This document shows, in pieces, positions 4,313 through 11,524 of a stretch of 34,239 nucleotides of DNA. Under the pieces are notes generated by a model. That model did not search any database, was not told the origin of the DNA, and worked only from the letters and a program-made list of their open reading frames with translations. A program made the translations under genes and the position numbers. Positions within the stretch are counted from its first letter, which is position 1. Every line of letters begins with the position of its first letter. This DNA comes from a virus (taxonomy: Duplodnaviria; Heunggongvirae; Uroviricota; Caudoviricetes), in the IMG/VR virus record IMGVR_UViG_2917881069_000005. One strand, 5' to 3'.

Positions 4313-5137
4313 TCAGGCGGTGAAAGTACCAATAAAGGTTTCTACTTTGCTGTCTTTGAATTTCTCAACAAGCAGATCACGAAATTCGTTAGCCATTTCT
4401 TCCTGCACTGCTTCCAGCTGAATAATGCGCAGAACCAGTACAGGACGATCGCCAGTGATAATGCTGAGGCGTAATTTAAACGGACGTTCTTTCAGGCCTT
4501 CAAACGGAACGCATTTAAATTCAAATGCCACTGGCATAATGTCTTTGGTTTTCGCTTCGACAGACTCCATCAGGGAGCGTTTGCCGCTGAAGTCATTATC
4601 TTCAAAATCAGCGGTCTTGTTTGCTTCAATCGTGATTTTACGGACTGCCGCAGCCGCTTTTGTTGCCTGAATAGCGTCACCATTAGCATCAAAGCCCACA
4701 AGGTAGTCGGCCCAGTCTTCAATCCATTCTGCCAGTGACTTCTGGGAGTTACGCTCGCCGTTAACAGACAACAGGGCAGAGAACGGTGCTGTCTTTTTCA
4801 GTTTGAGAGTGGCGGTGTTATCTGCGTGACCTGGTTCATCAATAGTACCCAGGTTAAGCACACTGACTGCTCGCATATTATCGGCATCGATAAAGCAGCG
4901 GGTGCCTTCATCTGCAAGATCTTTAGAATAACGGGTAAAGTCATCGATGCTGGCAGTGGAAAGCGCACCACGGAAACGGAAGCGATTTAAATTAAATTTT
5001 TCCAGATCATGAATGCGGAAATTCTCAGGCAATGCCACAGCATCGGCACCAATCTTACTGATAATTTCATTAACACCCTGAGCAGAAATAAGGGCATGGA
5101 TTTGATTAATTGCGGTTGCGTCTAAGTTCTGAGACAT
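4313..5137 (-). CDS. yfdQ: DUF2303 protein, YfdQ-like
   Basis: 274-aa ORF; size, position and sequence character match recollection of E. coli CPS-53 YfdQ. Confidence 0.6.
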
Positions 5138-5202
5138 AATAAGTCCTCACTATATAAAGATATTCAGTGATGAGATAAATAATCGGTTAATTAAGAACGA
5201 TA

Positions 5203-5565
5203 TTAATGACCTGCTGCGCGGAGTTTTCCGTCAGGTTCACCGGCAAGAGTCAGTAATTGTCCCTGGTCTTCCTGCAGAATAGTCAGGCGACCACCGCGAT
5301 TGACATACATCGGCGTTTCGGTGGTGTCTTCTTCGGAAATTTTCCCGCGGTTAGTCGGGCGAACATATGAGAGTTTGTGTTTGATTTTCACACGGTTCTC
5401 ATCAAACGGTTCGATGTCCAGATTGACCGAGACTTTACCTTTGTTTTTCGTGTTCATCACACCGGAAGCGACTTCACTGAGAACTGCGCCGAGTTTGGTT
5501 TCAAATACGCCGCCGTCCAGTTCTACGATAAATTCCTGCACGTTGGTACTGCGTTCGCTAGCCAT
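5203..5565 (-). CDS. hypothetical protein, YfdP-like (120 aa)
   Basis: Start set at internal MASERS with GAGGAG 8 nt upstream (ORF track 5203..5796 is an N-terminally over-extended frame). Confidence 0.5.
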   Translation of the reverse strand: MASERSTNVQEFIVELDGGVFETKLGAVLSEVASGVMNTKNKGKVSVNLDIEPFDENRVKIKHKLSYVRPTNRGKISEEDTTETPMYVNRGGRLTILQEDQGQLLTLAGEPDGKLRAAGH

Positions 5566-5613
5566 TTTGCTGCTCCTCATCATATCGACCCTGCAAGGTC
5601 GGTTGGTTTCTCC

Positions 5614-5746
5614 ACAAAACAGAGAAGAACACCTGCGGTGACTGCCGCCCGGATGGATTGGGTTATGAGCCCGTCGTCCGGTGATGCTCTTCTCTGTTTT
5701 GTAAAAAGGACGGTACCAGCCGGAAGCAAGGGTACAAGCTGGTACC
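5614..5746. promoter_or_regulatory. structured non-coding region: 15-bp perfect inverted repeat with 59-nt spacer plus GGTACC/GGTACAAG operator-like repeats (candidate OL/pL region)
   Basis: ACAAAACAGAGAAGA (about 5614-5628) and TCTTCTCTGTTTTGT (about 5688-5702); GGTACCAGC/GCTGGTACC pair flanking GGTACAAG (about 5712-5746), same half-site as the cI-cro operator. Confidence 0.4.
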
Positions 5747-6198
5747 GCCAACGCAGTGGCAGTTGTGGCGGGGTTGTCACTCAGGCGTATGGTCAACCTG
5801 ACAATCCGGTGTCCTCAACGGGGAAAGAGTAACCCCGCCATACTTACCGCCGCGCCATTTCGCGGATTACCACAACGCTGAGAGCACTTAGCCAGTTACG
5901 GCACCACACTTTGTCGCGGCTCCATAAATGCTCTTATCGTTGCACCCTGGTCTCTTCCCAGGCGTCAAACCGAATCGCCACGCTGGTTAGGCGTCTTATC
6001 AGCATCATCATTGACTTGCACATTCCGGCTACCTGGTTTGTTTGCCCGAGCAAGGAGTGGATTGTCCCCTTTAACGTCCCCAGACCGCTAACGACGCATG
6101 TGCCATACGCCGTGTTACAACCAAATTTTGTTTGAATCTTGCCTGTTGCATGTTTCTTTTGGATACATTATGTATCTCAAAGGTACATTGTCAAGTAT

Positions 6199-6221
6199 AA
6201 AAAAACCTGCCGAAGCAGGTT
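6199..6221 (-). terminator. rho-independent terminator downstream of cI-like repressor gene
   Basis: On minus strand CCTGC-ttcg-GCAGG stem followed by T7 run, immediately after the repressor stop at 6234. Confidence 0.5.
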
Positions 6222-6233
6222 CATAAATATTGA

Positions 6234-6908
6234 TTAGGCCTTTATTTTGTATCTTCTTGGTTTTCCCGAGAAAATCACTGTACCAATTATAGAGCAATTA
6301 CCGTTGATCTTAATGTAAGGTTCAGGCCAGTTTGGGTTTAATGCTTTGAGGTAACGCTGTGTTCCATCTTCTATCAACCGCTTGAAGGTGGTTTCGCCTG
6401 TATCGTGCATCAATGCAATAACGTCGTCACCGTGGCAGGCAGGGACTTCAGGATCAACAAAAATCATGTCTCCCGGGCGGTACTCATCAATCATTGAATC
6501 ACCAATCACCCGCAAGATATAAGTCATTTCGCCACAGGGTACAGGGCAGGGATAAGTTTCTGCTGTGCTCAAATCAACCTCAGAATAGCCAACTTCTTTC
6601 CATGCTCCGGCCTGTACCCATGATATGACAGGGACTAACGTTATTTGTTTGTTAGTGATTGAAACATCAGGTTTTTTTGTGATGTTCGTTGTCTGGTGTT
6701 CTTGATCAAGCCATCCGACAGGCAGGTCGAAACATTTTTCGATGTGCCGTGCCATGCTGTCACCGATATTTTTAGTTGCACCATCTCCCATAAACCTGCT
6801 GGTCTGGGTTGGCTCGCGATCAATCATGGTGGCAAAGGAAGAATTCCCGCCAACACCATCTCTCAGTTTTCTGGCGTTAGACCGCCGGATGTCATGGACT
6901 GTTTTCAT
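6234..6908 (-). CDS. CI-like prophage repressor with LexA-like S24 peptidase domain
   Basis: 224-aa ORF; C-terminal S24 signature (GDSM...GD.IFVDPE, Ser/Lys-dyad-type region); divergent from cro-like gene. Confidence 0.8.
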   Translation of the reverse strand: MKTVHDIRRSNARKLRDGVGGNSSFATMIDREPTQTSRFMGDGATKNIGDSMARHIEKCFDLPVGWLDQEHQTTNITKKPDVSITNKQITLVPVISWVQAGAWKEVGYSEVDLSTAETYPCPVPCGEMTYILRVIGDSMIDEYRPGDMIFVDPEVPACHGDDVIALMHDTGETTFKRLIEDGTQRYLKALNPNWPEPYIKINGNCSIIGTVIFSGKPRRYKIKA

Positions 6909-6998
6909 AATGAAATTAAAACCCTTGTACCGTTAAGGTACAAGTATCTTGAAGGTTCATTTTAATCATGTAATATGTACATCGGAGGTACATATTGT
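6909..6998. promoter_or_regulatory. divergent cI/cro promoter-operator region with two palindromic operators
   Basis: Perfect 21-bp palindrome CTTGTACC-GTTAA-GGTACAAG (about 6923-6943) and ATGTACA-N6-GTACAT (about 6973-6993), the latter overlapping the cro RBS GGAGG. Confidence 0.5.
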
Positions 6999-7199
6999 AT
7001 GAAAGCGTATTGGGACTCTTTAACCAAAGAACAGCAGGGCGAGTTGGCCGGAAAAGTTGGCTCAACACCAGGCTACTTACGGCTGGTTTTCAATGGTTAT
7101 AAAAAAGCCAGTTTTGTGCTGGCTAAAAAACTTGAGCAATGCACGTCAGGTGCAATTACGAAATCTGACTTAAGACCGGATATCTATCCGAAAGATTAA
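6999..7199 (+). CDS. Cro-like HTH regulator (YdaS-like)
   Basis: Start at internal MKAYWD preceded by GGAGG; 66 aa; small HTH protein divergent from repressor. Confidence 0.6.
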   Translation: MKAYWDSLTKEQQGELAGKVGSTPGYLRLVFNGYKKASFVLAKKLEQCTSGAITKSDLRPDIYPKD

Positions 7200-7230
7200 C
7201 AGAACACCTTCAATTTTTAACCACAGAACG

Positions 7231-7794
7231 ATGAGGCTAACCGTGGGTAAGCATCACTGGAAAGTAGAAAAACAGCCTGAGTGGTACGTGAAAGCTGTCA
7301 GAAAAACTATCGCGGCGTTGCCGGGGGGGTACGCTGAAGCTGCTGAGTGGCTGGATGTAACAGAGAACGCTTTATTCAACCGCCTTCGTGCAGATGGCGA
7401 TCAGATTTTCCCGCTGGGATGGGCAATGATTTTACAGCGCGCGGCTGGCACTCACTACATTGCGGATGCTGTCGCACAGTCTGCTGGTGGGGTGTTTGTA
7501 TCGCTTCCTGAAATTGAGGAAGTAGAGAACGCCGATATAAACCAGCGCCTGCTGGAAGTCATCGAACAGATCGGGAGTTACTCAAAGCAGATTCGTTCGG
7601 CAATCGAAGATGGGGTAGTGGAGCCACACGAGCAGACAGCAATTAATGATGAGTTGTATCTGTCAATTTCGAAGCTCCAGGAGCATGCAGCACTGGTCTA
7701 CAAAATCTTTTGCGCTCCAGAAAAGAGTGACGCCCGCGAGTGTGCAGCTCCGGGCGTCGTGGCGTTTTGTGTCTGTGGAGAAACTAACGCATGA
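7231..7794 (+). CDS. YdaT-like protein (proposed CII-type regulator)
   Basis: 187-aa ORF directly after cro; position and sequence character as in Rac-type ydaS-ydaT pairs. Confidence 0.4.
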   Translation: MRLTVGKHHWKVEKQPEWYVKAVRKTIAALPGGYAEAAEWLDVTENALFNRLRADGDQIFPLGWAMILQRAAGTHYIADAVAQSAGGVFVSLPEIEEVENADINQRLLEVIEQIGSYSKQIRSAIEDGVVEPHEQTAINDELYLSISKLQEHAALVYKIFCAPEKSDARECAAPGVVAFCVCGETNA

Positions 7795-8627
7795 ACAGTT
7801 TAACGGCAAATAATCGTTTGTCGCAACAGCTGGTGGTCAGTGTCGCTGAACACCTGTTGTTACGGCATGAATGCAGATTACCAAATCACCTGGCTGTAAG
7901 TAACCACAGAGAACTTTACCTGACTGTGGGGGGCGAGTTGTGCAGGAACTTAACCGCTGGTTTCGTGACGGAAGAGGGCTTTATGTCCATGTTATTCGTT
8001 GGGAGCCAGAAACACAGCGCGTTATCTATCTTCGCAAAGACTACCCGCATGAGTGCTTTAGTCCTTTGTGGAAATTCAGGCGTGATTTTGTTGAGTGTGA
8101 AGGACCACCAGCACATTGATTCTGCCATTCCGGGACGTTACACTGTTCAGGCACCTTATAAAGCGGGTGCCGGGATTGGCGTCCTGGAATTGCATACGGC
8201 GACAATTGGCGCGTTAGCGTCTTTTTTGTTGCTACAACTCAGCTATACCCAAATTATGGTGGGCTGGGTGGGGGCACCGAAAGGTGCGCCGGTTTCCGTA
8301 TGCGCCGGTTACGCCAACCCTGCTCAGTTCACCACCAGCGAAATTGGCGTTTCCGGTGGTGGAAGTTATCCATTGCATACGGAGGCTGCCATCATGGCTA
8401 CTGTCCCAGCCCTCTCTCGTCTGAATGATGACGACTTACATAAACTCAGTTATGTAACAACTGCACTACGTGCTCTGCGCAAGGTAACTCTTTCGGATCC
8501 GCAGGCGCATCAGGTTCTGGTAGAAACCCTTCTTAACTTGCAGGCTGAACGTATTCGTCTGGCGGATAAGGCTAATTTTCATATTCACCGTCTCCTTAAT
8601 ATCAGCGGAGGGCATCGTCATGCTTAA
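7791..8627 (+). CDS. hypothetical protein
   Basis: 278-aa ORF; ATGA overlap with upstream stop suggests translational coupling; no domain recognised. Confidence 0.4.
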   Translation: MNSLTANNRLSQQLVVSVAEHLLLRHECRLPNHLAVSNHRELYLTVGGELCRNLTAGFVTEEGFMSMLFVGSQKHSALSIFAKTTRMSALVLCGNSGVILLSVKDHQHIDSAIPGRYTVQAPYKAGAGIGVLELHTATIGALASFLLLQLSYTQIMVGWVGAPKGAPVSVCAGYANPAQFTTSEIGVSGGGSYPLHTEAAIMATVPALSRLNDDDLHKLSYVTTALRALRKVTLSDPQAHQVLVETLLNLQAERIRLADKANFHIHRLLNISGGHRHA

Positions 8628-8856
8628 TCCGTTGATTCTCAATATTTGCCGTTTGCTTCAGCGTAAAAAAACATCAATTCCTACAGTTGGGCAGTGGTAC
8701 ACCACGCCTGCAGGGCATGTTCTACGTGTTAGCCTGGTTGACCGTGAATGTCAGAAGGTGATTTGTGAACCGCTGGGCCGTAATTACCGCGTCAGTATGC
8801 CGCTTATAGCCTTTCGCTCCGGAAAAAACATGAAGCATCTCGGAGGTGCAGCATGA
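8620..8856 (+). CDS. hypothetical protein (78 aa)
   Basis: ORF track; 8-bp overlap with upstream gene and ATGA overlap with downstream replication gene. Confidence 0.35.
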   Translation: MLNPLILNICRLLQRKKTSIPTVGQWYTTPAGHVLRVSLVDRECQKVICEPLGRNYRVSMPLIAFRSGKNMKHLGGAA

Positions 8857-9671
8857 GTATGGAGCTGATGGTTAAAGCGATGAAAATTCGAGTGGGTAAT
8901 CCATTGCGAAAACTGGTTCTGATCAAGCTGGCTGATAATGCCAGCGATCAGGGTGAGTGCTGGCCCAGCTACCAGCATATTGCTGACCAGTGCGAGATTA
9001 GCAAACGTTCTGTGATGAATCATATTGCGGCCCTTTGTGAGTCCGGGCTGGTAAAAAAAGTCACCCGGAAAGGTGAAAAAGGTAACTCAAGTAATATCTA
9101 TCTCCTTCATCTGGATGGTGCAGGAGATTCACTAGGGGGTAGTGCAAATAATTCACTATCTGGTGCAGCAAATTCACCAGGTAGTGCAGGAGTTGCACCA
9201 GGGGGTAGTGCAGGAGATTCACCCAGAACCAGTCACTCTTTTGAACCAGTCAAAGAATCAGTCAATGAACCAATAGCTTTTGGTGCATCTGCTGATGAGT
9301 CTGTGCGAGTTCGTTCAAACCGACCGGAATACTCTCCGGAGTTTGAGCAGGCATGGCTGGCATATCCCAAACGTGCTGGTGGCAATTCAAAATCTGCAGC
9401 CTTCAAAGCCTGGAAAGCCCGTTTGAATGAGGGGGTAAACCCCGAAACCATGCTGGAAGGTGTGAAACGCTACGCGGGCTGGGTATCTGCGATGGGTAAC
9501 AGTGGCACACAATTTGTGAAACAGGCTGTCACGTTCTTTGGTCCGGATCGTCATTTCGAAGAATCCTGGGAAGTTCCTGCGGTATCTTCAGCCAGACGCG
9601 AGGACCCGTACTTCAAAGCCAGTTACGACAACGTGGACTACAGCCAGATCCCGGCAGGATTCAGGGGGTGA
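8853..9671 (+). CDS. replication initiator, O-like (N-terminal HTH, internal Gly/Ser/Ala linker encoded by iterons)
   Basis: N-terminal LVLIKLADNASDQGECWPSYQHIADQCEISKRSVMNHIAALCESGLV resembles phage replication-protein HTH; repeat array within gene. Confidence 0.6.
   Translation: MSMELMVKAMKIRVGNPLRKLVLIKLADNASDQGECWPSYQHIADQCEISKRSVMNHIAALCESGLVKKVTRKGEKGNSSNIYLLHLDGAGDSLGGSANNSLSGAANSPGSAGVAPGGSAGDSPRTSHSFEPVKESVNEPIAFGASADESVRVRSNRPEYSPEFEQAWLAYPKRAGGNSKSAAFKAWKARLNEGVNPETMLEGVKRYAGWVSAMGNSGTQFVKQAVTFFGPDRHFEESWEVPAVSSARREDPYFKASYDNVDYSQIPAGFRG
9110..9225 (+). repeat. five about 21-24-bp iterons (candidate ori) inside the O-like gene
   Basis: Units GGTGCAGGAGATTCAC / GGGGGTAGTGCAAATAATTCAC / GGTGCAGCAAATTCACC / GGTAGTGCAGGAGTTGCACC / GGGGGTAGTGCAGGAGATTCACC, followed by an A/T-richer stretch with GAACCAGTCA repeats. 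Confidence 0.6.
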
Positions 9672-9673
9672 TC

Positions 9674-10162
9674 ATGAGTCTTTTGAATGAAGTTCAGAAA
9701 TTCATTGAAGCCCATCCGGGGTGTACTTCCGGAGACATTGCGGATGCTTTTACAGGTTACTCACGGCAGCGCGTTCTGCAGTCAGCAAGCAAGTTACGTC
9801 AGAGTGGGCGTGTGGCTCACCGTTGTGAAGGGGATACACGCAGACATTTCCCGCGCCTGACTGAGAGAGCGCAGGAGCCGGAACCACAACCAGTTCGTGA
9901 AACCAGACCTGTGCGCAATTTCTATGTCGGCACTAACGATCCACGGGTGATTTTGTGCCTGACCCGCCAGGCTGAAGAACTGGAGTCAAGGGGCTTATAC
10001 CGTCGTGCTGCAACCGTGTGGATGGCGGCATTCCGTGAAAGCCACTCCCAGCCAGAACGAAACAATTTTCTGGCGCGTCGTGAGCGGTGCTTACGGAAAA
10101 GCAGCAAGCGCGCTGCATCGGGTGAAGAGTGGTATCTGTCAGGGAATTACGTGGGGGCTTAA
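9674..10162 (+). CDS. PerC-like putative transcriptional regulator
   Basis: C-terminal LESRGLYRRAATVWMAA resembles PerC-family motif; ATG 9674 preceded by AGGGGG. Confidence 0.4.
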   Translation: MSLLNEVQKFIEAHPGCTSGDIADAFTGYSRQRVLQSASKLRQSGRVAHRCEGDTRRHFPRLTERAQEPEPQPVRETRPVRNFYVGTNDPRVILCLTRQAEELESRGLYRRAATVWMAAFRESHSQPERNNFLARRERCLRKSSKRAASGEEWYLSGNYVGA

Positions 10163-10815
10163 TGAGTAATAAATATTGCCAGGCGCTGGTGGAACTGCGG
10201 AACAAACCAGTCCATGAACTGAAGGAAGTGGGCGATCAGTGGCGCACGCCGGACAACATTTTCTGGGGAATTAACACCCTGTTTGGCCCGTTTGTTCTGG
10301 ATCTGTTCACTGACGGTGATAACGCCAAATGTGCTGCGTATTACACGGCGGAAGACAACGCGCTGGCGCATGACTGGTCAGAACGTCTTGCGGAGCTTAA
10401 AGGTGCTGCCTTTGGTAATCCCCCATACAGCCGCGCCAGTCAGCATGAGGGGCAATACATCACCGGCATGCGTTACATCATGAAACATGCCAGTGCCATG
10501 CGTGATAAGGGCGGGCGCTATGTTTTCCTGATCAAAGCTGCCACCAGCGAAGTGTGGTGGCCGGAAGATGCGGACCATATTGCTTTTATTCGCGGGCGTA
10601 TTGGTTTTGAACTGCCTGCCTGGTTTATCCCGAAGGACGAGAAGCAGGTGCCGACAGGAGCGTTCTTCGCTGGTGCTATTGCTGTTTTCGACAAGACCTG
10701 GAAGGGACCGGCAATCAGCTACATCGGGCGCGATGAACTTGAGGCATGTGGTGAGGCGTTTCTGGCGCAGGTTCGCCAGCAGGCGGAAAAACTGGTCAGG
10801 GAGATGGCGGCATGA
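10162..10815 (+). CDS. phage-type DNA N6-adenine methyltransferase (Dam-like)
   Basis: NPPY motif (GNPPYSR); start at MSNKYCQ with TAATG overlap; ORF track 10129..10815. Confidence 0.75.
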   Translation: MSNKYCQALVELRNKPVHELKEVGDQWRTPDNIFWGINTLFGPFVLDLFTDGDNAKCAAYYTAEDNALAHDWSERLAELKGAAFGNPPYSRASQHEGQYITGMRYIMKHASAMRDKGGRYVFLIKAATSEVWWPEDADHIAFIRGRIGFELPAWFIPKDEKQVPTGAFFAGAIAVFDKTWKGPAISYIGRDELEACGEAFLAQVRQQAEKLVREMAA

Positions 10816-11138
10816 CGACGTTAACTCAATGCCAGCAGCAGGTGCTGGATATGCTGATTTCTTATCAGAAAGAACGTGGCTTCCCGCCAACCAATCAGGA
10901 GGTGGCAACCATGCTGGGATACCGTTCGGTGAATGCAGCGGTGGAGCATCTTCGCGCACTGGAGAAAAAAGGCGTCATCACGATAAAGCGTGGTGTGGCC
11001 CGGGGGATAACGCTTCATACCGCGGTGAAGGACGACGACAGCGAGGTGGTCGGGATTATCCGCTCACTGCTTGCCGGTGAGGAAAACGCCAGGCTGCGTG
11101 CAGCCCGCTGGTTACATGAGAGGGGCCTGAAAGTATGA
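10812..11138 (+). CDS. LexA N-terminal DNA-binding-domain-like protein lacking the S24 peptidase domain
   Basis: LTQCQQQVLDMLISYQKERGFPPTNQEVATMLGYRSVNAAVEHLRALEKKGVI closely resembles LexA winged-HTH; only 108 aa. Confidence 0.6.
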   Translation: MTTLTQCQQQVLDMLISYQKERGFPPTNQEVATMLGYRSVNAAVEHLRALEKKGVITIKRGVARGITLHTAVKDDDSEVVGIIRSLLAGEENARLRAARWLHERGLKV

Positions 11139-11524
11139 AGCTGATTCTGCCTTTTCCGCCCAGCGTGAACACGTACTGGCGACACCCCAACAAAGGGGCG
11201 TTTGCTGGTAAGAGCCTGATAAGCGCGGCGGGGCGAAAATTCCAGAGCGCGGCGTGCGCTGCAATAGTTGAGCAGTTACGTCGTCTGCCGAAACCAACGT
11301 CGGCACCTGCTTCAGTGGAGATCGTGTTGTTTCCTCCGGATAACCGGATCCGCGATCTGGACAACTATAACAAGGCGCTGTTTGACGCCCTGACCCACGC
11401 GGGTGTGTGGGAAGACGACAGCCAGGTGAAAAGAATGCTGGTGGAGTGGGGACCAGTTATCCCGGAAGGGAAGGTCGAGATCACTATCAGTAAGTACGAG
11501 AAAACGGCGGGTGCAGCCGCCTGA
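11135..11524 (+). CDS. rusA: Holliday junction resolvase RusA
   Basis: 129 aa; RusA signature including DLDNYNKALFDALT. Confidence 0.8.
   Translation: MKLILPFPPSVNTYWRHPNKGAFAGKSLISAAGRKFQSAACAAIVEQLRRLPKPTSAPASVEIVLFPPDNRIRDLDNYNKALFDALTHAGVWEDDSQVKRMLVEWGPVIPEGKVEITISKYEKTAGAAA

What the first reader, a model, noticed from the sequence alone, without database searches (positions are those of the whole stretch)
9110..9300. Iteron array (candidate replication origin) embedded in the O-like initiator gene
Five 21-24-bp direct repeats with consensus near GG(T)AGTGCAGGAGATTCAC lie inside the replication gene, where they encode its Gly/Ser/Ala linker. They are followed by an A/T-richer segment with GAACCAGTCA repeats. 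This mirrors ori-lambda, where iterons lie within gene O.
Basis: partly seen in the sequence, partly recalled or inferred. Interest (0 to 1): 0.5.

Follow-up and report, generated by a model that had tools for sequence, protein, structure and literature searches.

The report
Iteron origin inside phage initiator gene
The repeats are real and are most likely the replication origin of this lambda-like E. coli prophage, written into the flexible-linker codons of its own initiator gene; this is a familiar design, but it comes with an unusually conserved neighbouring DNA block that nobody seems to have described.

Summary
Five 15-bp near-palindromes (GTGCA-N5-TKCAC) start at 9118, 9142, 9163, 9184 and 9208. 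Three GAACCAGTCA 10-mers follow at 9226, 9243 and 9255. All lie in gene 8853-9671, between a winged-helix N-domain and a helical C-domain.

Comparison with about 80 relatives, chosen by protein motif only, shows selection on the DNA rather than the peptide:
- Units sit in two or more reading frames in 52 of 79 loci.
- Spacing is 21-24 bp in 269 of 278 cases.
- Half-sites change together with the predicted recognition helix.
- Natural chimeras swap N-domain and repeats as one unit, and some carry the lambda O C-domain.

The block CCAGAACCAGTCACTCTTTTGAACCAGTCA uses one codon per residue (99% against 53% in the N-domain). Its two 10-mers are read in different frames. It occurs only in genes of this family.

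Best reading (about 0.75): a lambda-ori-like iteron origin. The block is probably the melting or loading core, which is much less certain. Nothing has been tested experimentally. It is a new member of a known kind, of moderate interest. The module is in 17% of complete E. coli genomes, annotated only as "helix-turn-helix protein".

The parts
8853..9671 (+). Replication initiator gene (272 aa), organised as N-terminal winged helix, disordered linker and helical C-domain. It sits in the early-right operon after cI (6234-6908, minus strand), a cro-like gene, a cII-like gene and an Ash-domain gene.
   Evidence: ORF list. Pfam HTH_36 at aa 17-67, 44.1 bits against a cut-off of 25. PHROG 270 'replication initiation protein', E 1e-87. 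98-99% DNA identity to the replication genes of phages cdtI, SfV (orf39), mEp460 and Stx2a_WGPS2.
8853..9119 (+). Coding region of the N-terminal winged-helix domain (aa 1-89). The predicted recognition helix is aa 51-64 (KRSVMNHIAALCES) and the beta-hairpin wing is aa 67-85.
   Evidence: AF2 model with alignment: pLDDT 72-93 over aa 1-89, H17-29, H40-47, H51-64, E67-73, E79-85. Foldseek finds only generic winged-helix matches, including the DnaD N-domain 2v79 (E 0.02-0.1).
9118..9132 (.). Iteron 1, GTGCAGGAGATTCAC
   Evidence: 21.0 bits
9142..9156 (.). Iteron 2, GTGCAAATAATTCAC (the weakest unit)
   Evidence: 15.5 bits
9163..9177 (.). Iteron 3, GTGCAGCAAATTCAC
   Evidence: 19.1 bits
9184..9198 (.). 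Iteron 4, GTGCAGGAGTTGCAC (perfect 5-bp dyad, GTGCA/TGCAC)
   Evidence: 21.0 bits
9208..9222 (.). Iteron 5, GTGCAGGAGATTCAC. It abuts the conserved block; this fixed junction is seen in almost all relatives.
   Evidence: gap to the block is 1-2 nt; the last spacing is 24 bp in 64 of 79 loci
9223..9252 (+). Invariant origin-core block CCAGAACCAGTCACTCTTTTGAACCAGTCA. It holds two direct GAACCAGTCA 10-mers (9226, 9243), read as (R)TSH and EPV, that is, in different reading frames.
   Evidence: Identical at synonymous sites across E. coli, Stenotrophomonas, Vibrio and Pseudomonas phages. The major codon is used 99% of the time, against 53% in the N-domain. In Shewanella the block is kept although the frame is shifted. 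All evaluable exact matches in IMG/VR lie in genes of this family.
9255..9276 (+). Further 10-mer copies at 12-nt period: GAATCAGTCA (9255-9264) and the degenerate GAACCAATAG (9267-9276). Copy number varies among close relatives (EPVNEP, EPVKEPVNEP, EPVKEPVKEPVNEP).
9076..9115 (.). Low-stability A/T-rich segment on the left flank of the array. It is the least stable 40-nt window within 500 nt either side in this phage. Its role is unknown and its membership of the origin is uncertain.
   Evidence: Nearest-neighbour stability profile. A second soft spot at about -150 nt from the block recurs in 17 of 69 relatives.
9336..9668 (+). Coding region of the helical C-terminal domain. It is one of at least 9 unrelated C-domains found behind the same N-domain and origin cassette, and is presumed to be the helicase-recruiting part.
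   Evidence: AF2 helices at aa 162-225, pLDDT 57-76. PHROG 1701 'DnaD-like helicase loader' and PHROG 26426. C-domain clustering.

Best explanation
Positions 9118-9276 are the cis-acting replication origin of this lambdoid (Eru6-type) prophage. It is embedded in the linker-coding part of its own initiator gene and built like ori-lambda.

Proposed mechanism:
1. The early-right transcript makes the initiator.
2. The N-terminal winged helix of the initiator, as a dimer, binds each of the five near-palindromic 15-bp iterons (GTGMA-N5-TKCAC). The iterons are spaced 21-24 bp apart, so the dimers sit on one face of the helix and form an O-some-like complex.
3. The strain of this complex opens the adjacent low-stability block, which carries 3-4 direct GAACCAGTCA 10-mers. 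The block is probably also recognised sequence-specifically, as double- or single-stranded DNA, by the invariant part of the N-domain.
4. The C-terminal domain brings in the host DnaB helicase system, because this module encodes no helicase or loader of its own.

Shown here:
- the anatomy of the region;
- selection at the DNA level on both elements;
- co-variation of the half-sites with the recognition helix;
- modular co-inheritance of N-domain and repeats.

Inferred:
- binding of the initiator to the repeats;
- melting of the block;
- helicase recruitment.
For: 1. The repeats are non-random and unique in the window.
2. In 79 relatives chosen only by an N-domain protein motif, arrays of 3-7 units occupy the same place. 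Units lie in two or more reading frames in 52 loci and sometimes in inverted orientation, so the DNA is conserved and the peptide is not.
3. Spacing is 21-24 bp in 269 of 278 cases and the last unit abuts the block. The annotated lambda iterons are 18-bp dyads spaced 20, 24 and 23 bp, at aa 117-145 of O.
4. Half-sites track the predicted recognition helix (helix 51-64):
   - S[KR]RSV[MI]xH goes with GTGMA..TKCAC.
   - x = R, in two lineages (Erwinia/Izhakiella and Vibrio/Aliivibrio), goes with GTGAC..GTCAC.
   - [ST]xVRxH goes with ATGCC..GGCAT.
   - SRSTVKSH goes with GGGGCAG-GAG-CTGCCCC.
   - SKSTAMRAV goes with GTGTC..GACAC.
5. Natural swaps exist. The same C-domain occurs with three different N-domains, each carrying its own repeat type (P0067, P0069, P0072). 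Against ST64B the window is 98.6% identical through the block and about 80% identical after it. Relatives L088, L089 and L160 join this N-domain and origin to the lambda O C-domain (40% identity over 104 aa, E 2e-23).
6. Block: one codon per residue (0.99 against 0.53); the 10-mer is read in two frames; it is retained in frame-shifted Shewanella genes; on average it is the least stable 40-nt window (z 1.8); it is found only in this gene family.
7. Copy number ranges from 1 to 9 units among near-identical genes, as expected for slippage in a DNA array.
Against: - There is no experimental evidence for this family. The Eru-typing paper states that nothing is known about replication of Eru phages (PMC8951638).
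- The block is only moderately A/T-rich (59% A+T). In this particular phage the least stable segment lies left of the array, not in the block.
- Polymorphisms among near-identical arrays avoid the half-sites only as a non-significant trend (7 of 23 against 46% expected, p = 0.09).
- Variants with only 1-2 units are common in genomes (P0030 is on 64 contigs), so five units are not strictly required, unless those prophages are defective.
- The N-domain shows no detectable sequence homology to lambda O's N-domain.
Confidence: 0.75

Rival explanations
1. The palindromic repeats are bound by the initiator, but the binding serves regulation (autorepression, a transcriptional roadblock, handcuffing or incompatibility) rather than origin firing. 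The true start site lies elsewhere.
For: Iterons in plasmids also serve copy-number control. No unwinding data exist. The least stable DNA in this phage lies left of the array.
Against: No further iteron-like site exists anywhere in the 34-kb window. The array keeps a fixed junction with the conserved block in nearly all relatives. The layout is the same as ori-lambda, and some relatives have a lambda O C-domain.
Confidence: 0.08
2. The conserved GAACCAGTCA 10-mers are the real binding sites of the highly conserved N-domain. The variable palindromes are a slippage-prone spacer, or are bound by another factor.
For: The first 45 residues of the N-domain and the block are both nearly invariant across Gammaproteobacteria and always occur together. 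The 10-mers are direct repeats at a 12-17-nt period, and their copy number varies.
Against: The palindromes are conserved as DNA in several frames and co-vary with the recognition helix, which a passive spacer would not do. The two readings are not exclusive: the N-domain may contact both elements.
Confidence: 0.1
3. The array is only a low-complexity flexible protein linker that grows and shrinks by replication slippage and has no cis-acting role.
For: It encodes a Gly/Ser/Ala/Pro-rich, predicted disordered segment, and its length varies from 1 to 9 units.
Against: The peptide is not conserved but the DNA is. The same 15-mer is read as GSAGDSP, VVQQIHQ or SESPAL in different frames or orientations. 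Dyad symmetry, 21-24-bp phasing and invariant half-sites have no explanation at the protein level.
Confidence: 0.04
4. The invariant block is kept as a recombination joint, a 'module linker' that lets N-domain/origin cassettes be exchanged between C-domains. It is not a replication element.
For: Mosaic breakpoints fall exactly at the block (chimeras). At least 9 unrelated C-domain families follow it.
Against: Recombination alone cannot hold 30 nt at about 99% identity while neighbouring synonymous sites are randomised across orders of bacteria. Selection for evolvability is weak. The internal 10-mer repeats and their copy-number variation point to a binding or unwinding element. The joint role is more likely a by-product.
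Confidence: 0.05
5. The nucleotide conservation reflects an RNA-level signal in the mRNA (a structure, a frameshift site or an sRNA target).
For: Conservation at synonymous sites alone cannot tell DNA-level from RNA-level constraint.
Against: There is no Rfam match apart from a chance miRNA hit below threshold. The element is a direct repeat, not a stem. Frame-shifted and truncated genes retain it.
Confidence: 0.02

Closest known systems
ori-lambda within gene O of phage lambda (also the 6-iteron origins of Stx phages 933W and P27)
   Same: The origin lies in the middle of the initiator gene and encodes the linker between the DNA-binding N-domain and the helicase-recruiting C-domain. The array consists of dyad-symmetric repeats: lambda has 4 x 18 bp spaced 20-24 bp, and this phage has 5 x 15 bp spaced 21-24 bp. 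The repeat number changes protein length (PMC7466680). A less stable segment follows the array. Some relatives even carry the lambda O C-domain.
   Different: The N-domain is not detectably homologous to lambda O's (no PF04492 hit; hhalign probability 6%). The half-sites are different. Instead of a 40-bp A/T-rich tract, the right flank is a 45%-GC block of direct 10-mers that is invariant across Gammaproteobacteria. There is no P-like loader gene in this module. No experiments have been done.
Origins inside gene 18 of phages P22 and L
   Same: Distinct iteron sets lie inside the coding region of distantly related ori-binding proteins in lambdoid phages (PMC8022706).
   Different: Phage L has six 11-bp repeats (TGTCCAACGGA), and both phages partner with a DnaB-type helicase, gp12. 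The repeat sequence and the protein family differ from those here.
Iteron plasmids (RK2 TrfA, pPS10 RepA) with DUE 13-mers bound as single-stranded DNA by Rep
   Same: A winged-helix initiator, tandem iterons, and an adjacent unwinding element made of short direct repeats that the initiator can bind sequence-specifically as ssDNA (PMC4081077 and PMC10602881, abstracts). This is the model proposed here for the GAACCAGTCA 10-mers.
   Different: Plasmid origins are intergenic and the Rep proteins belong to a different family. ssDNA binding is untested here.
Eru6 replication unit of Stx phages (reference phage Stx2a_WGPS2, AP012537)
   Same: It is the same module: an Ash/Rha-type gene followed by an HTH_36 protein downstream of cI. 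The window gene is 98.7% identical to that of the reference phage.
   Different: The typing paper classifies proteins only. It mentions no iterons or origin and states that nothing is known about how Eru phages replicate.
DopC (HTH_36 N-domain plus DnaT-like C-domain), a domesticated O-like gene
   Same: Similar domain logic: an O-like HTH_36 N-domain fused to a primosome-type C-domain (PMC5509034). Homologues of the window protein are often annotated 'primosomal protein I'.
   Different: The authors found no iteron-like sequences in dopC. The window gene retains a full iteron array and is phage-borne.

Membership tests
Lambda-type origin embedded in the initiator (O-type) gene | The initiator gene lies in the early-right operon downstream of the cI/cro/cII-like genes | tested here: met
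   cI-like S24 repressor at 6234-6908 (minus strand), cro-like gene at 6975-7199, cII-like gene at 7231-7794, initiator at 8853-9671.
Lambda-type origin embedded in the initiator (O-type) gene | Three or more tandem dyad-symmetric repeats in the middle of the gene, between the N- and C-domains, spaced about two helical turns apart | tested here: met
   Five units at 9118-9222 spaced 24, 21, 21 and 24 bp. Relatives are spaced 21-24 bp in 269 of 278 cases. Lambda is spaced 20, 24 and 23 bp.
Lambda-type origin embedded in the initiator (O-type) gene | Repeat sequence is specific to, and inherited with, the N-terminal DNA-binding domain | tested here: met
   Table of half-site against recognition helix. 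Chimeras P0067, P0069 and P0072. ST64B mosaic.
Lambda-type origin embedded in the initiator (O-type) gene | An A/T-rich unwinding element lies next to the repeats | tested here: inconclusive
   The block has GC 0.41 against 0.53 background, and it is the least stable 40-mer in 51% of loci. In this window the minimum lies left of the array, and the block is not strongly A/T-rich.
Lambda-type origin embedded in the initiator (O-type) gene | The initiator binds the repeats, and the fragment supports initiator-dependent replication | not testable with these tools
   Needs EMSA or footprinting and a plasmid replication assay. No publication was found for this family.
Phage_rep_O (lambda O) protein family | Sequence homology of the N-terminal origin-binding domain to lambda O | tested here: not met
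   No PF04492 hit at E below 0.01. hhalign of a 39-sequence N-domain profile against lambda O aa 1-173 gives probability 5.7%. BLASTP of the window protein against lambda O gives nothing significant.
Phage_rep_O (lambda O) protein family | C-terminal P-binding domain of lambda O | tested here: not met
   The window's own C-domain does not match lambda O. Only relatives L088, L089 and L160 have it (E 2e-23).
HTH_36 (PF13730) winged-helix proteins | Pfam match above the gathering score, and a winged-helix fold | tested here: met
   44.1 bits against a cut-off of 25, at aa 17-67. The AF2 model shows H-H-H plus a beta-hairpin wing at pLDDT 72-93. Foldseek hits are winged-helix proteins.
DnaD-like replisome organisers | DnaD N-domain or C-domain match above threshold | tested here: inconclusive
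   DnaD_N scores 24.3 bits, below the cut-off of 27. The 2v79 fold match has E 0.047. PHROG 1701 'DnaD-like helicase loader' matches aa 147-249. No PDB sequence hit.
Eru6 replication unit of Stx phages | An Ash/Rha-domain gene and an HTH_36 gene as the first replication-region genes downstream of cI; identity to the reference phage | tested here: met
   Ash-domain ORF at 7791-8627 and HTH_36 ORF at 8853-9671. 98.7% identity to AP012537 Stx2a_WGPS2. Eru6 definition in PMC8951638.

The most novel reading that the evidence does not exclude
The invariant roughly 30-50-bp block (CCAGAACCAGTCACTCTTTTGAACCAGTCA plus further GAACCAGTCA copies) is a previously undescribed, sequence-specific origin core. 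It is shared by thousands of gammaproteobacterial phages whatever their iteron type, C-domain or helicase partner. It may act as an initiator-recognised unwinding or loading element, the phage counterpart of DnaA-trios or plasmid DUE 13-mers. Because it is identical between phages, it would also serve as the crossover point that lets N-domain/origin cassettes move between replication modules.
Probability: 0.35. Interest if true: 0.6.

Novelty: new member of a known kind. Interest (0 to 1): 0.42.

Why it matters
The module (N-domain plus origin) is present in 932 of 5426 complete E. coli genomes. It also occurs in many Stx2c/Stx2a (Eru6), Cdt-I, SfV and ST64B-type phages, where it is annotated only as 'helix-turn-helix domain-containing protein'. 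The literature on Eru phages says their replication is unknown, yet phage replication drives Shiga-toxin gene dosage.

Locating the origin gives a defined target for replication and induction studies and a marker for annotation.

The family also offers a natural series in which recognition helix and iteron half-site change together: at least five helix/half-site pairs on one scaffold. That could serve as a specificity code for winged-helix initiators.

The frame-independent, codon-frozen block is a clean example of a cis element constraining a coding sequence. It is also a candidate for a new type of origin core.

Tried and rejected
- **Rfam scan of 8600-9900:** only a sub-threshold miRNA chance hit, so an RNA element was rejected.
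- **Homology of the N-domain to lambda O:** hhalign and BLASTP found none.
- **PDB sequence search:** only a spurious low-complexity hit.
- **Single-sequence AF2:** unusable, pLDDT 41. The run with an alignment gave a confident N-domain only. Foldseek against the PDB gave generic winged-helix matches and nothing for the C-domain.
- **Polymorphism test:** the test of whether half-sites are spared among near-identical arrays showed a trend only (p = 0.09).
- **GC skew across the window:** the minimum at 5-7 kb coincides with the switch in gene orientation and says nothing about the origin.
- **Promoter and terminator scan of 6100-10300:** counts at or below shuffle expectation, nothing at the origin.
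- **Literature:** searches for the motif strings, HTH_36/PF13730 and SfV/ST64B origins found no description of this origin. The Weigel & Seitz 2006 review and the SfV genome paper are not held, so an earlier in-silico mention cannot be excluded.
- **Other genes as the binding partner:** the neighbouring Ash-domain or PerC-like proteins were considered and rejected, because the neighbours differ among relatives while the N-domain co-varies with the repeats.
Full report
**Observation**

The window is a lambdoid E. coli prophage or phage. Gene 8853-9671 (+, 272 aa) lies in the early-right operon, after:
- an S24-type cI repressor (6234-6908, minus strand);
- a cro-like gene;
- a cII-like gene;
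- an Ash-domain gene.

The gene has a Pfam HTH_36 domain at aa 17-67 (44.1 bits, cut-off 25) and matches PHROG 270 'replication initiation protein' (E 1e-87). It is 98-99% identical in DNA to the replication genes of phages cdtI, SfV (orf39), mEp460, many Stx2c phages and Stx2a_WGPS2. Stx2a_WGPS2 is the reference phage for the 'Eru6' replication type (PMC8951638).

Inside the gene are five tandem units: GTGCAGGAGATTCAC (9118), GTGCAAATAATTCAC (9142), GTGCAGCAAATTCAC (9163), GTGCAGGAGTTGCAC (9184) and GTGCAGGAGATTCAC (9208). Spacing is 24, 21, 21 and 24 bp.

GAACCAGTCA follows at 9226 and 9243, GAATCAGTCA at 9255, and a degenerate copy at 9267. GC falls from about 0.56 over the last units to about 0.40-0.42 at 9220-9299.

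**The repeats are selected as DNA, not as peptide**

Distant blastn hits led to Stenotrophomonas, Vibrio and Pseudomonas phages and other Stx phages. Their initiators share:
- a near-invariant N-domain (MSMxLMVKAMKIKVGNPLRKLVLIKLADNAxDxGECWPSYQHIADQCE...);
- a variable tandem repeat array;
- an identical DNA block;
- unrelated C-domains.

To avoid selecting on DNA, I scanned one genome per species (GTDB) using only two N-domain peptide patterns. This gave 80 loci from about 70 gammaproteobacterial species. In 79 loci (these plus the phage loci) with at least 3 units:
- the array sits in the same place;
- unit number is 3-7, with a mode of 5;
- start-to-start spacing is 21-24 bp in 269 of 278 cases;
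- the last unit ends 1-2 nt before the block;
- units lie in two or more reading frames in 52 loci.

For example, Pseudomonas phage PseuP_222 has the same recognition helix as the window (SRRSVMNHI against SKRSVMNHI) and the same unit. One copy is read as VVQQIHQ in another frame, and one copy lies in inverted orientation and is read as SESPAL.

Each unit is a near-palindrome. The consensus from 206 units is GTG-M-A-NN-W-NN-T-K-CAC, with invariant ends. A flexible-linker peptide under protein-level selection alone would show none of these properties.

**Co-variation with the recognition helix**

AlphaFold2 with a 28-sequence alignment gives a confident winged helix for aa 1-89: H17-29, H40-47, H51-64 and a wing at 67-85, with pLDDT 72-93. 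It gives an unstructured region at aa 91-157, exactly the part encoded by the array and the block. Foldseek finds only generic winged-helix proteins, including the DnaD N-domain.

Sorting loci by the sequence of helix 3 gives consistent pairs:

| Helix 3 | Half-sites | Where seen |
|---|---|---|
| S[KR]RSV[MI]xH[IV] | GTGMA..TKCAC | window and most loci |
| SKRSVMRHI (x = R) | GTGAC..GTCAC | Erwinia/Izhakiella |
| D[KR]RTAMRHI (x = R) | GTGAC..GTCAC | Vibrio/Aliivibrio |
| [ST]xVRxHI | ATGCC..GGCAT | Stenotrophomonas, Klebsiella RothD, Aggregatibacter S1249, Shewanella L148 |
| SRSTVKSHI | GGGGCAG-GAG-CTGCCCC | F451, phi24B, Min27 |
| SKSTAMRAV | GTGTC-AGAGA-GACAC | mEp554 |

This pattern is expected if helix 3 reads the half-sites. 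It is correlative evidence, not a binding assay.

**Modular inheritance and the link to lambda**

After the block, at least 9 unrelated C-domain families occur.
- One (L165) is Pfam Phg_2220_C.
- Another (L088, L089, L160) is homologous to the lambda O C-domain: 40% identity over 104 aa, E 2e-23.

So this N-domain and array occupy the position of lambda O's N-domain and ori-lambda in true O-type chimeras. In the lambda record the four iterons are annotated as 18-bp dyads at aa 117-145, spaced 20, 24 and 23 bp, a closely parallel geometry.

Protein database hits show the window-type C-domain joined to three different N-domains, each with its own repeat type and with the junction in the block (P0067, P0069, P0072). 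Against Salmonella phage ST64B the window is 98.6% identical for nt 1-417 (N-domain, array and block) and about 80% identical thereafter. Array length among near-identical genes ranges from 1 to 9 units; phage cdtI has a 66-bp, three-unit insertion.

The N-domain itself is not detectably homologous to lambda O's. The relationship is therefore one of architecture and mechanism.

**The conserved block**

The 28-nt string AGAACCAGTCACTCTTTTGAACCAGTCA is recognisable in all 74 genome loci where the gene reaches that far.

In 49 non-redundant loci, conserved residues of the N-domain use their commonest codon 53% of the time, with 2-6 codons per column. The block residues P-R-T-S-H-S-F-E-P-V-N-E use one codon 99% of the time, including the six-fold degenerate R and S.

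The two GAACCAGTCA copies are read in different frames, as (R)TSH and as EPV. Where the block does vary, the changes are often non-synonymous (T/I, H/N, F/L/S/P). Shewanella and Parashewanella genes have a 2-nt deletion between the copies and read the first copy as PEPV, yet keep the DNA.

More distant relatives keep a recognisable variant:
- P. aeruginosa phage phi2 has 4 x GAACCGTMA at a period of about 12 nt.
- mEp554 has AATCAGTCA and AACCAGTAA.
- Psychrobacter phage Y8A has EPINEPINEPI.

All 80 IMG/VR loci returned for the exact block lie in genes of this family wherever upstream sequence is available. The same holds for the listed rows of 139 phage records and 15 'plasmid' records; the latter are mostly about 40-kb non-mobilisable records, probably circular phage genomes.

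The block is on average the least stable 40-nt window within 500 nt either side (mean z 1.8; GC 0.41 against 0.53). It is the minimum in 51% of loci. In this window, however, the minimum is at 9076, left of the array.

I could find no paper containing the motif strings.

**Mechanism proposed**

What is shown:
- the anatomy;
- nucleotide-level constraint on both elements;
- co-variation of helix and half-site;
- co-inheritance of domain and array;
- the absence of other sites in the window.

What is inferred:
- Initiator dimers bind the five iterons on one face of the helix, forming an O-some-like complex.
- This destabilises the adjacent block. The block's 10-mer direct repeats are probably recognised by the invariant part of the N-domain, possibly as single strands as in plasmid DUEs (PMC4081077, abstract) or in lambda O's ssDNA binding (PMC7466680).
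- The C-domain (PHROG 'DnaD-like helicase loader') recruits the host helicase system, since the downstream genes are PerC-like, Dam, LexA-like and RusA, with no helicase or loader.

I put about 0.75 on the array being the origin's initiator-binding element, and about 0.35-0.45 on the block being a sequence-specific melting or loading core.

**Rivals**

- **Pure protein linker:** contradicted by frame independence.
- **Regulatory binding only:** not excluded, but there are no other sites in the window and the layout copies ori-lambda.
- **10-mers as the true iterons:** possible as an addition, but it does not explain the co-varying palindromes.
- **Recombination joint:** real as a by-product, but insufficient to freeze 30 nt across orders of bacteria.
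- **RNA element:** no support.

**Novelty and importance**

Origins made of iterons inside initiator genes are textbook for lambda, P22 and phage L (PMC8022706), so this is a new member of a known kind.

I found no description of the origin for this family. The Eru paper mentions neither iterons nor an origin and says nothing is known about how Eru phages replicate.

The N-domain and origin occur in 932 of 5426 complete E. coli genomes, annotated only as HTH-domain proteins, and in 5411 protein clusters at E of 1e-5 or better. The codon-frozen, two-frame block and the natural helix/half-site series are the parts a specialist would find worth following up.

Noticed in passing
L001 4260-4330 (phage cdtI); L036, L040, L069; proteins P0001-P0040: Iteron copy number varies from 1 to 9 among otherwise near-identical initiators (protein lengths 242-302 aa). 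cdtI has a 66-bp, three-unit insertion. A two-unit form (P0030, 250 aa) is on 64 contigs and may mark defective prophages or a minimal origin.
   Followed up: partly
window 8853-9671 against L294 1201-2019 (ST64B): Sharp mosaic breakpoint: 98.6% identity through N-domain, iterons and block (nt 1-417), about 80% after it. The crossover lies at the 3' end of the 10-mer repeats.
   Followed up: yes
Proteins P0067, P0069, P0072: Natural chimeras: F451-type, RothD-type and a third N-domain, each with its own iteron type, joined at the block to the window-type C-domain.
   Followed up: partly
L105 (Pseudomonas bharatica), L141 (Erwinia tracheiphila): Initiator genes truncated by a frame change within a shortened iteron array. 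They read ...HPEPVTLLNQ* across the block and are probably decaying prophages. The block DNA is still intact.
   Followed up: no
L144, L156, L159 (Aliivibrio): Variant block with three 10-mers packed at 11-13 nt (AGAACCAGTCATAGAACCAGTCAATTAGAACCAGTAA, read as RTSHRTSQLEPV). This shows that the 10-mer, not the spacer, is the conserved unit.
   Followed up: no
window 9668-10162, 10129-10815, 10812-11138, 11135-11524: Downstream genes are a PerC/MarR-like regulator, a Dam-type N6-adenine methyltransferase, a LexA-DNA-binding-domain protein and RusA. All have overlapping start and stop codons (probably translationally coupled). There is no helicase, loader or primase in the module. No GATC site lies within the iteron array or block.
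   Followed up: partly
Proteins P0047-P0050, P0078: Database proteins in which about 70-80% of the initiator (98-99% identical) is fused to a RusA domain (PF05866). This implies deletions that remove the genes between the initiator and rusA in some prophages.
   Followed up: no
window 7791-8627 against L001 2635-3783: The Ash-domain ORF upstream of the initiator is 278 aa here but 382 aa in phage cdtI. The N-terminal (Rha-like?) part differs or is missing in the window.
   Followed up: no
Plasmid records CP077666.1, NZ_CP148393.1, NZ_CP098024.1, NZ_CP118695.1, CP080634.1: Several non-mobilisable 'plasmids' of 38-45 kb carry the block inside an HTH-protein gene. They are probably circular phage genomes or phage-plasmids using this origin.
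   Followed up: no
window 5000-7000: The cumulative GC-skew minimum coincides with the divergent cI/cro transcription switch, not with the candidate origin 2-3 kb to the right.
   Followed up: yes
L171 1429-2370 (phage 689R6, SfIV-like): A different HTH_36 initiator (39% identity in the N-domain) has its own linker repeats (DPSKSDASKS...) and no GAACCAGTCA block, but shares the last 76 nt of the gene with the window at 97-99% identity. This is another module junction near the 3' end.
   Followed up: no
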